Below, piece by piece: positions 29,793 through 32,903 of a stretch of DNA of 64,000 nt (position 1 is its first letter; each line of letters starts with the position of its first letter). The notes under the pieces were generated by a model. It saw nothing but the letters and a program-made list of their open reading frames with translations, was not told the DNA's origin and made no database searches. The translations under genes and the position numbers were made by a program. This DNA comes from Promethearchaeota archaeon. GTDB lineage: Archaea > Asgardarchaeota > Lokiarchaeia > Sigyniarchaeales > SOKP01. The DNA lies in NCBI GenBank assembly GCA_019058445.1, contig JAHPZA010000009.1:480001-544000 (forward strand), given 5' to 3'.

Positions 29793-30608
29793 TTATTTAT
29801 TAATTAATATGTTTGTACAATTAATATTTTGATTTTTCAATGACTTGTATATATATCCTTCCTTAAGTCCATTTATTAATTGCACTGGAATATTATAAGT
29901 ACAAATTTGCTTAATAAAGTTAAGTTTGCCTTTAATTCCACCAGTAACATCTATTTTTTGACCTAGATTTGCTAAATTAAGACTATCTAATTCGTCAGAA
30001 TTACATTCTGTAGCCAGTGTGCATTCCCCATTAGTATCTTTGTCATTGATATATATACCATCCGTTTCCATTGTGAAAATTACTTTTGATACCGAATATT
30101 TTTTCAAATTTTCACATAATTCAAGAATAATCTGATCTCCTGAGATAATTGAAAACGAGCCTTGTTTATCAAGAATAATATCACCATATAAAATAGGCAA
30201 GATATTGAGGTCTAAGGCCGCCTTGATAATTTCGATAGAGTAAGTTGAAATTTTATGAGAATCTTTAATAAAAATGCTGGAAGCTTGAATTGATAAGGCC
30301 GGATATTTTTTTTCTAAAAATAAATTAATTAAATAGGAATTGAACTTATTCATTGATTGGTGAGTTTGAGTAAGTCCAAATATTTGATTTTCAATAGATG
30401 GATTAAGACCTTTCGAAATACTGTACTGCTTTGCAAGAGGATGACCAAATGAACCCCCACCATGAATTAAAATTACTTTTTCATCAGCATCGATTATCTG
30501 CTGTACTGCGCTTTTTGCAACTTCTTCTCGTATAGAAAATGGTTTATTTTTATCAGTTAATAAACCTCCACCTAACTTTAACAGTATAATTTTATTTTTG
30601 TCCTTCAA
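29793..30608 (-). CDS. ipk: Isopentenyl phosphate kinase
   Basis: 'LKLGG..LTDK', 'HGGGSFGH', 'SGDQ', 'DVTGG..GK'. Confidence 0.93.
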   Translation of the reverse strand: MKDKNKIILLKLGGGLLTDKNKPFSIREEVAKSAVQQIIDADEKVILIHGGGSFGHPLAKQYSISKGLNPSIENQIFGLTQTHQSMNKFNSYLINLFLEKKYPALSIQASSIFIKDSHKISTYSIEIIKAALDLNILPILYGDIILDKQGSFSIISGDQIILELCENLKKYSVSKVIFTMETDGIYINDKDTNGECTLATECNSDELDSLNLANLGQKIDVTGGIKGKLNFIKQICTYNIPVQLINGLKEGYIYKSLKNQNINCTNILINK

Positions 30609-30621
30609 TTTAAATTAACAC

Positions 30622-31600
30622 TCAACCTATCATTGTTCTCCAGGCATCAAATCCTTCTTGTTCGATGGCCTTAGCAATTTTCTCTTGTAATTCTTCGCTT
30701 TCAGCTAAAGCTATTACCAATCCTCCGCGTCCTGTTCCCGTCATTTTAGCGCCTAATGCACCATTATTTAGTGCAATTTCTACTAATCTATCATTTAATT
30801 CTCCAGAAACCGTGATTTGTTGAAGTAATTTATGATTTTGATTCATTAAATCACCTAAAGTGTTGGAATCTCCTTCAAGGAGAGCTTTTTTTGCTTTTTC
30901 TGCTAGAATTTTATAATCACCGAATATTTTCTCAAATTTTTCTGGAGATTCTTCCTTTAAACTCCGAACATCAGCAACTACCTCCGTTGTTGAAGCAGTT
31001 ATTCCTGAATTTGCGATTACTAATGGCATCTTTTTTGGTGTTTTTAAAAGGTCCATAGTATTCTTTCCACCACTTAAGTTCTTTACAAACCATATCAATC
31101 CTCCATATGTTGAGGCTGTATTATCTATTCCTGAGGGAGTTCCGTGATATGCTTTTTCACCTTCATAAGCCGCTGCATTTATCTTTTCATCATCTAATCC
31201 AAGATTAAACCTTTCGTTTAAAGCGCGAGCTAAAGATGTACATTGAGCAGCAGAAGCTCCAACTCCACTCGCAGCAATCAAATCTCCTGCAAATGTTATT
31301 TCAAGTTTCTGACTCTGGATATCTATTTTTAAATGTTCAAGTACATTTTTAATAGATTGCATAGCATCATCATATTTCATTTGTTTATAACCTGGTGTAG
31401 CAGGCCTCTGATCATCTACAGTCCAACCTTGACCATTAACAATTTTAACTTCAGCTGTTGTATAGGAACTTAAAGCTGATGCGATTGCAGGAAGACCATA
31501 CACTACAAAATGATTGCGTTTAATCCTGAATTGGGAATTAAATTTCGCCAAAAAGTATAGTCTTTCCATATCCTTTTCCAGTACCCAAATTATTCACCAT
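30622..31600 (-). CDS. mvk: Mevalonate kinase, two-exon model: exon 1 31544-31600 (or TTG start at 31588), exon 2 30622-31512
   Basis: Exon 1 encodes (MVNN)LGTGKGYGKTILFGE and exon 2 HFVVYGLPAIA..., with the GHMP motif 'ASGVGASAA', 'HGTPSGIDN' and 'GAKMTGTGRGG'. The supplied ORF from 31569 has a non-homologous N-terminus. Confidence 0.9.
31513..31543 (-). other. Candidate 31-nt bulge-helix-bulge (tRNA-type) pre-mRNA intron in mvk
   Basis: mRNA GGCG-AA|A-UUUAAUUC-(CCAAUUCA)-GGAUUAAA-CGCA-AU|C-AU. Removing it joins GAA and CAU and restores G-E-H. Confidence 0.72.
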
Positions 31601-32045
31601 TTATTCTCGTATTTTATGACAAAATCTATGAAATAAATAATTCTTACCTATATTTAAAAAGTTGGATATAATAATTTATCCAGAAATTATTAATTTATCT
31701 ACTTATTCTGCCTATTCAAATATCCTACCATACTTATAATATCCAATTCCAAGCTTCTATACGTTTGATTATAAAATTGTTTTAATTCTTCAACCTTTTT
31801 TTTCCCTAGTTAGGTTAGATTATAGGAATTATCAAATGGGAAGGTAGAATCTTAATAATCAAGTTATTATTACATAATTGAAATTAGTTTGTGAAGATTA
31901 CAAAGATAGGTTTTTTAGTCACTAAACATACTCATAAATGCTTAAGACAAGATACCAAAGTTTATTATTAATTTCTTTATAAATTAAAAATTAACTGAAT
32001 TATGGAAAAAATTGAATTTCCATATGACAAAGATGAGAAAAACTT

Positions 32046-32903
32046 ATGAATAATTCAAATTCCAATACAATTTTCGGTATTCTTCTTTTATTGGGATTTG
32101 GTGGTCTTATCATCGGACCCGCCTTCCTTATTGTTGGTATCTATGCATATATTTCTCTAGAACCTTTTGGAATTAGTTCAATAATTTTTGGAATAGTCCT
32201 CATTTCAATCTCAATATTATCATTTACAATCCTCATTATTTATAAGAATAAACACGATTTCTTTAAAGATGCTTCTAAACAAAAAGAAAAAAAAAAAGAA
32301 TCATTGAAATTACTTCATAAAGATAAGTTTTTCTGTGAGAGATGTCTAAAAGAAATCACAGAAGAAGATGCAGTGTTATACAAAGGTCATTGTCTTGAAT
32401 GTTGGAAAACTTTATACATTTATGAACCCATTCATCTCCCTATTTGTTGTATTATTATAACTTTATTGATTTCCTTTATTTTTATAGTCATAGGTTTTCA
32501 AATTGGTGACACTGTTGTCTCTTTGATAGTGGCAATAATGCTTATAGTTTTGGTTATACCCGCATACGCACTTGGAATTAGAACAAGCATTAGAAAACTA
32601 AAGAAAGAAAAAAAGGTAATTGAGAACATAATGAAGAATAAATATAAAATCAAAATATCAAAATGTTATTTATGTGATAATGAAGCTCATACTAATTGTT
32701 ATAATTGTAATAAACCAATATGTGAGACGCATTCTACAGAATCAAAATTTGCATTTTATGGGCCTGAAATTACTTGCCTTGATTGTGCAAGAATTATTGA
32801 AATCAAAGAAGGTGCTAAAATGTTTATTTTTGTTATTTTGATGACTTTTGCGATGGGGATATTAATTGCTGTATTATTCTTTTCAATCATAATTCTTCCT
32901 TGA
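32046..32903 (+). CDS. Hypothetical membrane protein with Cys/His-rich Zn-binding modules
   Basis: About 5 TM segments; CERC..CLEC and CYLC..CYNC..C..H..CLDC (B-box-like). Confidence 0.75.
   Translation: MNNSNSNTIFGILLLLGFGGLIIGPAFLIVGIYAYISLEPFGISSIIFGIVLISISILSFTILIIYKNKHDFFKDASKQKEKKKESLKLLHKDKFFCERCLKEITEEDAVLYKGHCLECWKTLYIYEPIHLPICCIIITLLISFIFIVIGFQIGDTVVSLIVAIMLIVLVIPAYALGIRTSIRKLKKEKKVIENIMKNKYKIKISKCYLCDNEAHTNCYNCNKPICETHSTESKFAFYGPEITCLDCARIIEIKEGAKMFIFVILMTFAMGILIAVLFFSIIILP

What the first reader, a model, noticed from the sequence alone, without database searches (positions are those of the whole stretch)
31513..31543. Candidate bulge-helix-bulge (tRNA-type) intron in the mevalonate kinase gene of a probable Asgard archaeon
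Seen in sequence: on the minus strand mvk reads ...GGA AAG ACT ATA CTT TTT GGC GAA [ATTTAATTCCCAATTCAGGATTAAACGCAAT] CAT TTT GTA GTG. The 31-nt insert splits the conserved GKxILFGEH motif between E and H. Unspliced, exon 1 stops at once (GAA ATT TAA). The RNA folds as exon GGCG, a 3-nt bulge AA|A, an 8-bp intron stem UUUAAUUC/GGAUUAAA with an 8-nt loop, CGCA pairing back on GGCG (3 of 4 pairs, one G-A), a 3-nt bulge AU|C, and a looser exon-exon stem (U-A, U-rich internal loop, ACUAUA/UGUAGU). Established: archaeal splicing endonuclease cuts after the second nucleotide of each bulge and RtcB ligates; applying that rule removes exactly these 31 nt and restores the frame. The best-known archaeal mRNA precedent is the crenarchaeal cbf5 intron. 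Inference: this is a spliced mRNA intron in a lipid-precursor gene, which would tie isoprenoid synthesis to the tRNA-splicing machinery in the lineage closest to eukaryotes (compare HAC1/XBP1 non-spliceosomal splicing). Gene callers miss it because an out-of-frame ATG at 31569 gives a plausible ORF lacking the conserved Lys and Glu. Caveats: the central helix has one mismatch and the 3' bulge sits in a relaxed, BHL-like context.
Basis: partly seen in the sequence, partly recalled or inferred. Interest (0 to 1): 0.93.

Follow-up and report, generated by a model that had tools for sequence, protein, structure and literature searches.

The report
tRNA-type mini-intron splitting Asgard mevalonate kinase
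The only mevalonate kinase gene of this Lokiarchaeia-type (Asgard) archaeon is broken inside its active-site motif by a 31-base insert with the shape and cut points of an archaeal tRNA-type intron. The insert is conserved with compensating mutations in 56 related species, so the enzyme can almost certainly be made only after the mRNA is cut and re-joined, which is very rare in archaea.

Summary

**What is there**
- On the minus strand, exon 1 (31600-31544, ...GKTILFGE) and exon 2 (31512-30622, HFVVYG...) of the genome's only mevalonate kinase gene are separated by 31 nt. The insert carries an in-frame TAA and shifts the frame.

**Why it is not chance**
- The fold alone is at chance level in this 31 %-GC genome. 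The evidence is comparative.
- The same insert sits at the same codon boundary in 56 of 154 species-level genomes of the order. All 56 belong to one Lokiarchaeia family. Lengths are 31, 30 or 28 nt, and every insert has an in-frame stop.
- 37 relatives carry the exact intron-less junction.
- The boundaries required by protein homology match bulge-helix-bulge geometry in 55/55 distinct sequences: a 4-bp helix with a cut after the second bulge nucleotide on each side.
- The exon Gly codon covaries with the intron (GGC/CGC to GGU/CAC).
- Synonymous sites are frozen only when the intron is present: Phe TTT in 53/53, and no GGA or GGG.
- Exon 2 is under purifying selection (dN/dS about 0.1).
- EndA and RtcB are both encoded.

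**Context**
- gyrB, acs and cooS in this genome carry the same kind of 30-32-nt insert.

**Limits**
- No RNA data were available, so splicing is inferred, not shown. A regulatory role is unsupported.
- This scan has noted the mvk intron before in other genomes. I found no publication on it.

The parts
31544..31600 (-). mvk exon 1 (MVNNLGTGKGYGKTILFGE). The start may instead be TTG at 31588, which is the position of the ATG in relatives.
   Evidence: Its frame is the only conserved one: amino-acid identity is 0.95 against 0.80 in the other two frames, and 13 of 21 variable columns fall at third codon positions.
31513..31543 (-). 31-nt BHB intron. It runs from the third nucleotide of the 5' bulge through the second nucleotide of the 3' bulge.
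   Evidence: A homologous insert sits at the same site in 56 genomes.
30622..31512 (-). mvk exon 2 (HFVVYG... to the stop codon).
   Evidence: TIGR00549 at 1.3e-62, starting at profile position 11. dN/dS is 0.09-0.12 against orthologues.
31546..31549 (-). Central helix H, exon strand GGCG (the Gly codon plus the G of the Glu codon).
   Evidence: Pairs with 31515-31518. Pair 24-54 is CG in 50, UA in 4 and UG in 1 of 55 sequences.
31515..31518 (-). Central helix H', intron strand CGCA. It forms 3 of 4 pairs here (one G.A). In 22 of the 55 distinct sequences all four pairs form (G-U in 21, G-C in 1).
31543..31545 (-). 5' bulge AA|A. The predicted cut lies between 31544 and 31543.
   Evidence: Unpaired in the MFE fold. 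The 5' bulge is AAA, AAU, AGA, AAG or AGU across the 55 sequences.
31512..31514 (-). 3' bulge AU|C. The predicted cut lies between 31513 and 31512.
   Evidence: the first A and the last C are invariant. The closing pair U31550-A31511 is present in 55/55.
31519..31542 (-). Intron hairpin h': 8-bp stem UUUAAUUC/GGAUUAAA (31535-31542 with 31519-31526) and an 8-nt loop (31527-31534).
   Evidence: Four stem pairs show changes on both sides across relatives.
31502..31561 (-). Span of the loose outer exon-exon helix h: ACUAUA (31556-31561) with UGUAGU (31502-31507), across a U-rich internal loop.
   Evidence: Present in the MFE fold, but pair 12-67 is unpaired in 40/55 sequences. Support is weak.
29793..30608 (-). 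Isopentenyl phosphate kinase, immediately downstream in the same pathway.
   Evidence: NF040647 at 4.6e-63.

Best explanation
The 31 nt at 31513-31543 (minus strand) are an archaeal bulge-helix-bulge intron in the pre-mRNA of the organism's only mevalonate kinase gene.

**Proposed mechanism**
- In the transcript, exon GGCG pairs with intron CGCA to form the 4-bp central helix. In this window that is 3 pairs plus one G.A.
- The helix is flanked on opposite strands by two 3-nt bulges, AA|A and AU|C.
- An 8-bp intron hairpin provides helix h'. An invariant U-A pair plus a looser exon-exon helix provide h.
- The splicing endonuclease EndA (one 202-aa gene in this genome) cuts after the second nucleotide of each bulge.
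- RtcB joins the exons and probably circularises the intron.
- Only the spliced mRNA encodes the GKTILFGEHFVVYG motif and hence an active kinase. Unspliced mRNA gives a 20-aa peptide.

**Shown:** the sequence, the geometry, conservation and covariation, purifying selection, and the presence of EndA and RtcB.

**Inferred:** cleavage, ligation and the timing of splicing relative to translation.

**History and role:** the intron most likely arose once within one Lokiarchaeia family and has since been lost precisely many times. It is best seen as a tolerated passenger that creates an obligatory dependence on the tRNA-splicing enzymes, not as a demonstrated regulator.
For: 1. **Same site in many genomes.** An insert of 31 (50 sequences), 30 (4) or 28 (1) nt lies at exactly FGE|HFVV in 56 of 154 genomes of the order. 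All 56 are in family f1. Every insert has a stop in the exon-1 frame.
2. **Exact intron-less alleles.** 37 f1 genomes have TTYGGNGAR directly followed by CAYTTYGT. No genome has both forms.
3. **Cut sites fit BHB geometry.** The cuts required by homology equal the BHB rule in 55/55 sequences. The central helix has 4/4 pairs in 22 and 3/4 in 33, and the closing U-A pair is present in 55/55.
4. **Pairing and covariation.** 84 % of cells are paired, against 34-50 % when the partners are slid. Pair 24-54 is CG in 50, UA in 4 and UG in 1. Four intron-stem pairs show double changes. The covariation score exceeded all 500 shuffles.
5. **Synonymous-site constraint.** With the intron, Phe is TTT in 53/53 and Gly is GGC (49) or GGT (4). 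Without it, Phe is TTC 30 / TTT 17 and Gly is GGA 21 / GGT 11 / GGG 8 / GGC 7. In phylogenetically independent pairs, GGC tracks the intron about 8:0 (median p 0.008).
6. **Exon 1 is coding.** It is conserved only in its own frame.
7. **Exon 2 is functional.** dN/dS is 0.09-0.12.
8. **No other gene reaches the MVK cut-off.**
9. **Spliced product matches orthologues.** It aligns ungapped to intron-less orthologues at 78-86 % identity, and the junction peptide is identical.
10. **Enzymes present.** EndA (TIGR00324, 89 bits against a cut-off of 59.6) and RtcB (574 bits) are encoded.
11. **The insert is genomic.** Contigs from three samples span it without gaps.
12. **Same architecture elsewhere in this genome.** gyrB has a 30-nt insert (GLEGV|RKRPAMYIGD), acs has two 30-nt inserts, and cooS has a 32-nt insert exactly where its family match splits.
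Against: - No RNA evidence of any kind exists here, so splicing, the circular intron and the cleavage sites are inferred.
- The motif is relaxed. In this window the central helix has a G.A mismatch. The outer helix is one invariant pair followed by a U-rich internal loop, and a distal helix that is broken in most relatives.
- Unconstrained MFE reproduces the exact BHB in only 10 of 55 sequences. Structures compatible with the BHB (bulge nucleotides held unpaired, central-helix nucleotides allowed only their BHB partners) lie a median 1.7 kcal/mol above the MFE. RNAalifold did not recover the structure.
- Only one EndA gene was found, and it has the length of the single-subunit (alpha) type. 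From my own knowledge, homotetrameric alpha4 enzymes are the strict type. Whether this enzyme accepts relaxed motifs is unknown.
- My ab initio genome scans showed no excess of BHB-plus-ORF-joining sites over decoys. The geometry alone therefore carries little information in this AT-rich genome.
Confidence: 0.86

Rival explanations
1. Translational recoding: ribosomes bypass or frameshift across the insert, as in the 50-nt hop of phage T4 gene 60, so the RNA is never cut.
For: The insert contains a hairpin, and a stop follows soon after the Glu codon. These features superficially resemble a take-off site.
Against: - Insert lengths of 31, 30 and 28 nt would need different frame changes.
- The codon before exon 2 is AAT, TAT, AAA, TAA, TAG, TAC or CAA and never GAA or GAG, so there is no landing codon for peptidyl-tRNA-Glu.
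- The distance from the Glu codon to the first in-frame stop differs between relatives, from the second to the eighth codon of the insert (by eye from the sequences printed).
- Bypassing does not explain the covariation between the exon Gly codon and the intron's 3' end, nor the exact 4-bp/3-nt symmetry.
Confidence: 0.03
2. The gene is not repaired at all. A truncated kinase is made from the out-of-frame ATG at 31569 (or the gene is a pseudogene), and the N-terminal motif is dispensable or supplied elsewhere.
For: An ORF of 315 aa exists from 31569. One GHMP paralogue (L005, 371 aa) scores 121 bits on the MVK model.
Against: - Exon 1 is conserved in its own frame (0.95 identity, mostly third-position changes). 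The read-through frames are poorly conserved and carry stops in 6 and 18 of 55 sequences.
- Exon 2 has dN/dS about 0.1.
- No other gene reaches the MVK cut-off of 163 bits.
- From established knowledge of GHMP kinases, the missing Lys and Glu of the GKxILxGEH motif are needed for catalysis in mevalonate kinases.
- The helix-forming synonymous sites are frozen only in intron-bearing alleles.
Confidence: 0.03
3. The insert is removed at the RNA level, but by machinery other than EndA/RtcB, for example another structure-specific nuclease. Alternatively, it is removed at the DNA level in a subpopulation.
For: The motif is relaxed, and only one alpha-type EndA gene was found. No enzyme assay exists.
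Against: - The cut sites fit the EndA rule exactly in 55/55 sequences.
- EndA and RtcB are present.
- 19 of the 23 tRNA genes that ARAGORN could call have introns, so the machinery must be active.
- DNA contigs of the same strain keep the insert, and no DNA joint across it was seen. Contigs cannot exclude rare variants.
Confidence: 0.06
4. Assembly or sequencing artefact.
For: None beyond the fact that the genome is a metagenome-assembled one.
Against: The insert is present in 56 independently assembled species-level genomes and in contigs from three samples, including diverged strains.
Confidence: 0

Closest known systems
cbf5 (pseudouridine synthase) pre-mRNA intron of Crenarchaeota (Watanabe 2002; Yokobori 2009, PMC2738675)
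   Same: - It is a BHB-type intron inside a protein-coding region that breaks the frame and must be removed for a functional protein.
- It shows lineage-specific presence and secondary precise loss.
- Gene callers mis-annotate the gene.
- The inferred enzymes are the tRNA-splicing endonuclease and ligase.
   Different: - It occurs in a different phylum (Asgard/Lokiarchaeia) and in a different gene, a lipid-precursor kinase.
- It lies 57 nt from the start codon, inside the catalytic motif.
- It is one of several such introns in the same genome (gyrB, acs, cooS). According to PMC7714728 and PMC2738675, cbf5 was the only coding-region case confirmed.
- Splicing of cbf5 was shown experimentally. 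Here it is not.
BHB intron in the 5' UTR of Haloferax volcanii HVO_1309 (Schwarz et al. 2020, PMC7714728)
   Same: An mRNA is a substrate of the archaeal splicing endonuclease, and a small intron (46 nt) is released.
   Different: That intron lies in the untranslated leader and does not interrupt the reading frame. It was confirmed by circRNA-seq and in vitro cleavage.
[quoted passage not shown]
   Same: Both have the same motif, the same inferred enzymes, short length, relaxed motif variants and repeated gain or loss. The window's genome also has intron-rich tRNAs: 19 of the 23 tRNA genes ARAGORN called have introns.
   Different: [quoted passage not shown] The preprint does not mention mRNA introns.
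HAC1/XBP1 unconventional mRNA splicing in eukaryotes
   Same: Both are protein-only, non-spliceosomal splicing of an mRNA with a frame change. In metazoa, ligation is by RtcB.
   Different: The endonuclease there is IRE1, which recognises twin stem-loops rather than a BHB, and the event is a regulated stress switch. No regulation is shown here and the intron is dispensable in sister species. This is an analogy only.

Membership tests
Archaeal bulge-helix-bulge (EndA/RtcB-spliced) intron | [quoted passage not shown] | tested here: met
   The spacing is exact in 55/55 sequences. The helix has 4/4 pairs in 22 and 3/4 (a G.A) in 33, including this window. This is a relaxed but recognised form.
Archaeal bulge-helix-bulge (EndA/RtcB-spliced) intron | Cuts after the second nucleotide of each bulge give a functional joined product. 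| tested here: met
   Applying the rule removes exactly the insert and restores GKTILFGE|HFVVYG in all 55 sequences. The joined protein aligns ungapped to intron-less orthologues.
Archaeal bulge-helix-bulge (EndA/RtcB-spliced) intron | Flanking helices h (exon side) and h' (intron side). | tested here: inconclusive
   h' is good: an 8-bp stem here, and 6-10 pairs allowing one mismatch in 38 of 55 sequences. h is one invariant U-A pair, then a U-rich internal loop and a distal helix that is broken in 40/55. The 3' side is therefore BHL-like.
Archaeal bulge-helix-bulge (EndA/RtcB-spliced) intron | The structure is maintained by compensatory change. | tested here: met
   Central pair CG 50 / UA 4 / UG 1, and four stem pairs with double changes. 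84 % of cells are paired against 34-50 % when slid. Codon constraint holds in phylogenetically independent pairs.
Archaeal bulge-helix-bulge (EndA/RtcB-spliced) intron | Splicing endonuclease and RNA ligase are encoded by the organism. | tested here: met
   EndA is at C9:770313-770918 (TIGR00324, above cut-off). RtcB is at C1:114713-116020 (PF01139, 574 bits).
Archaeal bulge-helix-bulge (EndA/RtcB-spliced) intron | Spliced exons and an excised (circular) intron are observed in RNA; cleavage by EndA in vitro. | not testable with these tools
   No RNA run could be listed for this stretch.
Archaeal pre-mRNA (cbf5-type) intron | It interrupts a protein-coding frame, shows lineage-specific presence or absence, and has exact intron-less alleles. 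| tested here: met
   56 intron-bearing and 37 intron-less genomes in one family. The gene tree needs 17 state changes, at least 10 of them on well-supported branches.
Translational bypassing (T4 gene 60 type) | Matched take-off and landing codons, and a fixed gap. | tested here: not met
   No Glu codon precedes exon 2 in any of 55 sequences, and the gap length varies (28/30/31 nt).
IRE1-dependent HAC1/XBP1 splicing | Twin stem-loops with a conserved 7-nt loop cut by IRE1; stress-regulated. | not tested
   I did not search for IRE1. The structure seen is a BHB, not twin loops. The resemblance is functional analogy only.

The most novel reading that the evidence does not exclude
The mvk intron is one of a whole population of about 30-nt BHB introns in ordinary protein-coding genes of this Lokiarchaeia family; gyrB, acs and cooS were verified here. 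In this reading its splicing is not just tolerated but acts as a gate. Production of the first committed kinase of isoprenoid-lipid synthesis would then depend on, and be tuned by, EndA/RtcB activity. That would be a protein-enzyme mRNA-splicing checkpoint in the closest prokaryotic relatives of eukaryotes, functionally comparable to HAC1/XBP1.
Probability: 0.15. Interest if true: 0.95.

Novelty: new member of a known kind. Interest (0 to 1): 0.82.

Why it matters
Until now, archaeal mRNA splicing by the tRNA-splicing enzymes has been documented for one coding region (crenarchaeal cbf5) and one 5' UTR (Haloferax HVO_1309).

- **A second, well-supported coding-region case.** It lies in Asgard archaea and in an essential lipid-pathway gene. 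It comes with 56 natural variants and 37 natural deletions, which together act as a ready-made mutational series.
- **More than one gene is affected.** With gyrB, acs and cooS in the same genome, protein-gene introns of this type may be common in this lineage.
- **Practical consequence.** Gene callers mis-predict these genes. Here they give a wrong N-terminus that lacks catalytic residues, so pathway reconstructions for Asgard MAGs may be biased.
- **Conceptual consequence.** mRNAs in eukaryotes' closest relatives appear to be routinely cut and re-ligated by protein enzymes. That bears on how transcription, splicing and translation are ordered in cells without a nucleus.

Tried and rejected
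- **RNA evidence.** No RNA holder was listed in either run search, so expression and splicing could not be examined.
- **RNAalifold.** On the 55-sequence alignment it returned only a trivial 3-bp helix. The stem register and loop length shift between sequences, so I counted pairs on the stated structure instead.
- **Ab initio genome-wide scans.** I scanned for BHB geometry combined with ORF joining.
  - The first run exceeded the time limit.
  - The reversed-genome control proved unfair, because a reversed genome has no ORFs.
  - Strict geometry gave 88 ORF-joining sites, against 78-98 for random decoys and 74-89 for shifted cuts. Stratifying by stem length gave no excess.
  - Relaxed geometry gave 1507 sites against about 1470-1690 in controls.
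  - These scans have no power in a 31 %-GC genome. They say nothing on how many introns exist, although they did recover the cooS site.
- **Second EndA subunit.** None was found. The only weak hit (C3, E = 0.05) is a methyltransferase-like ORF.
- **Second MVK.** None was found. The paralogues score 63-121 bits against a cut-off of 163.
- **Insert at this site outside the family.** A looser pattern over 400 genomes of the phylum gave only two extra hits. They look like chance and are comparable to the reversed-pattern control.
- **Literature.** No paper combining mevalonate kinase, intron and splicing endonuclease was found. None combined cbf5, intron and Asgard either.
Full report
**1. Observation**

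On the minus strand the window reads ATG (31600) ... GGA AAG ACT ATA CTT TTT GGC GAA (to 31544). A 31-nt insert follows (31543-31513), and then CAT TTT GTA GTG ... runs to a stop at 30622.
- Read unspliced, exon 1 ends at once (GAA ATT TAA). The ORF list shows a 20-aa ORF at 31538-31600.
- It also shows a 315-aa ORF from an out-of-frame ATG at 31569, whose first 19 residues are read-through of exon 1 and the insert.
- Removing exactly the 31 nt gives a 315-aa protein with GKTILFGEHFVVYGLPAIASAL.
- Exon 2 alone matches TIGR00549 mevalonate kinase (1.3e-62, 211.8 bits against a cut-off of 163), but only from profile position 11. An intron-less orthologue (L007) matches from position 3 with 234.5 bits.
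- The next gene downstream is isopentenyl phosphate kinase.

**2. The fold**

It contains:
- a distal exon-exon helix;
- the GCG/CGC core of the central helix;
- an unpaired AAA;
- an 8-bp stem with an 8-nt loop.

On its own this is not significant. The z-score is -0.22 for the 76-mer and -1.6 for the 43-mer. Strict BHB-like geometry turns up about 15,000 times in both the real and the reversed genome. Everything that follows therefore rests on comparison.

**3. Distribution**

The genome is 4.6 Mb in 10 contigs and 92.6 % complete. It has one mvk. The other GHMP kinases score 63-121 bits on the MVK model, below the cut-off.

A pattern search over 154 species-level genomes of the order found an insert between FGE and HFVV in 56 of them. 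All 56 are in the window's family, spread over five genera.
- Among 55 distinct sequences, 50 inserts are 31 nt, four are 30 nt and one is 28 nt. All have a stop in the exon-1 frame.
- 37 genomes of the same family have the uninterrupted junction. No genome has both forms.
- A looser pattern over 400 genomes of the phylum added only two chance-like hits.
- Record titles of relatives read Promethearchaeota/Promethearchaeia, i.e. Lokiarchaeia (Loki_b32, ABR01-06 and others), which confirms the Asgard assignment.
- Public DNA contigs from three samples span the insert without gaps, including diverged strains. Loose ends show that intron-less relatives live in the same sediments.

**4. Structure is under selection**

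Protein homology fixes the junction uniquely. Any other cut changes the invariant Glu or His. In all 55 sequences that junction lies after the second nucleotide following each strand of a 4-bp helix, which is the BHB rule.
- The helix has 4/4 pairs in 22 sequences and 3/4 (a G.A) in 33. A closing U-A pair is present in 55/55.
- On the stated structure, 84 % of cells pair, against 34-50 % when the 3' partners are slid by 1-3 columns.
- The central pair between the third base of the Gly codon and the intron is CG in 50, UA in 4 and UG in 1. Four intron-stem pairs show double changes.

The intron-less alleles are a natural control.

| Codon | Intron-bearing alleles | Intron-less alleles |
|---|---|---|
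| Phe | TTT 53/53 | TTC 30, TTT 17 |
| Gly | GGC 49, GGT 4 | GGA 21, GGT 11, GGG 8, GGC 7 |

In phylogenetically independent pairs, GGC goes with the intron about 8:0 (median p 0.008) and GGY about 7:0 (p 0.016).

**5. The gene is alive and needs both exons**

- Exon 1 is conserved in its own frame: 0.95 amino-acid identity, with 13 of 21 variable columns at third positions. The other two frames show 0.80 identity and carry stops in 6 and 18 sequences.
- Exon 2 has dN/dS of 0.09-0.12 against both intron-bearing and intron-less orthologues.
- The spliced protein aligns ungapped to intron-less orthologues at 78-86 % identity.

**6. History**

On an mvk tree of 100 family members, intron state needs 17 changes, at least 10 of them on well-supported branches. 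The window's gene is sister (support 99) to an intron-less allele. The introns are clearly homologous to one another, because they share both the site and a common sequence. The simplest history is therefore one gain followed by many exact losses. Yokobori et al. proposed the same for cbf5, possibly via the spliced RNA (PMC2738675). Repeated exact deletion at the predicted splice sites is itself indirect evidence that those are the real junctions.

**7. Machinery and context**

- EndA (202 aa, both domains, TIGR00324 above cut-off) and RtcB are encoded. No second EndA paralogue was found.
- ARAGORN calls only 23 tRNA genes in this genome, and 19 of them have introns. This fits the heavily interrupted tRNA genes reported for Asgard archaea.
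- Following leads from earlier notes of this scan, I checked three other genes in this genome:
  - gyrB matches its family end to end but with two in-frame TAA. They lie in a 30-nt insert with GGCG/CGCU, 3-nt bulges and a hairpin. Removing it restores GLEGV|RKRPAMYIGD.
  - acs has 30-nt inserts that restore GEP|INPEAW and DTYWQ|TETGG.
  - The cooS family match splits exactly at a 32-nt BHB candidate from my own scan.

  The mvk intron therefore belongs to a class.

**8. Rivals**

- **Translational bypass or frameshift.** This fails because lengths differ modulo 3, no Glu landing codon exists in any sequence, and it cannot explain the exon-intron covariation.
- **Truncated protein or pseudogene.** This fails on exon-1 frame conservation, on dN/dS, and on no other gene reaching the MVK cut-off.
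- **Assembly artefact.** This is excluded by 56 independent assemblies.
- **A nuclease other than EndA.** This cannot be excluded without biochemistry, especially as the motif is relaxed and only one alpha-type EndA gene is seen.

**9. Weak points**

- There is no RNA evidence.
- Unconstrained MFE reproduces the exact BHB in only 10/55 sequences. Structures compatible with the BHB (bulge nucleotides held unpaired, central-helix nucleotides allowed only their BHB partners) lie a median 1.7 kcal/mol above the MFE. They are still far better than with shuffled intron interiors (-11.3 against -6.5 kcal/mol).
- RNAalifold failed on the alignment.
- The outer helix is poorly supported.
- My genome-wide ab initio scans had no power.

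**10. Comparison and novelty**

The literature held here names cbf5 as the only coding-region BHB intron and HVO_1309 as a 5'-UTR case (PMC7714728, PMC2738675). I found nothing on mevalonate kinase or on Asgard mRNA introns. The recent Asgard tRNA-intron preprint does not mention mRNAs.

This scan has noted the same mvk intron before in other genomes. Those are unpublished AI notes. My tests were run independently and agree with them.

I file the finding as a new member of a known kind, the BHB pre-mRNA intron. It is notable for its lineage, for the gene it interrupts, and for being one of several in the same genome. The dependence of isoprenoid synthesis on the splicing enzymes follows directly. 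A regulatory role like that of HAC1/XBP1 is speculation, and the many natural losses argue against it.

Noticed in passing
G000:C9:606358-608376 (-), outside the window (about 64 kb beyond its end): gyrB matches TIGR01059 over positions 1-639 but has two in-frame TAA. They lie in a 30-nt insert with a GGCG/CGCU helix, UAA and AAA bulges and a 9-bp hairpin with one mismatch. Removing it restores GLEGV|RKRPAMYIGD.
   Followed up: partly
G000:C10:621084-623089 (-): The acetyl-CoA synthetase family match is split and has internal stops. Two 30-nt inserts with BHB-like geometry restore GEP|INPEAW and DTYWQ|TETGG. Several AMP-ligase paralogues also show internal TAA, some of which may simply be gene ends.
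   Followed up: partly
G000:C6:396802-396833 (-): A 32-nt insert with 4/4 central helix pairs and an 8-bp stem splits cooS. TIGR01702 positions 1-549 and 547-621 lie on either side of it, in different frames (AAPEY|MEQK).
   Followed up: partly
G000:C10:684116-684145 (-): A 30-nt candidate with a 9-bp stem and a 5-nt loop joins two long ORF pieces (...QLQMTD|SDDEEQ...). The gene was not identified.
   Followed up: no
whole genome G000: ARAGORN finds only 23 tRNA genes in 4.6 Mb, and 19 of them have introns. Many tRNA genes are probably too interrupted to be called.
   Followed up: no
L011, L012, L013 (relatives), at the mvk start: Where most relatives have TAAATGGG (the upstream gene's stop overlapping the mvk ATG), these three have TAAACGGG, so no standard start codon sits at that position.
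   Followed up: no
window 31601-31750 (-), compared with relatives: In most relatives, mvk abuts an upstream gene ending ...VEVK*. In this genome and in G019 and G028, an AT-rich intergenic region with a TATA-like TTTAAATA precedes mvk, and the N-terminus is extended (MVNNL...). This is a local rearrangement.
   Followed up: no
G000:C4:213158-216382 (L005:1471-2583, -): A 371-aa GHMP kinase scores about equally on the galactokinase model (125 bits) and the mevalonate kinase model (121 bits). Both scores are below the cut-offs, so its function is unclear.
   Followed up: partly
window 32046-32903 (+): A 285-aa ORF has several hydrophobic segments and Cys-x-x-Cys pairs: a membrane protein with zinc-ribbon-like motifs. 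I did not examine it.
   Followed up: no
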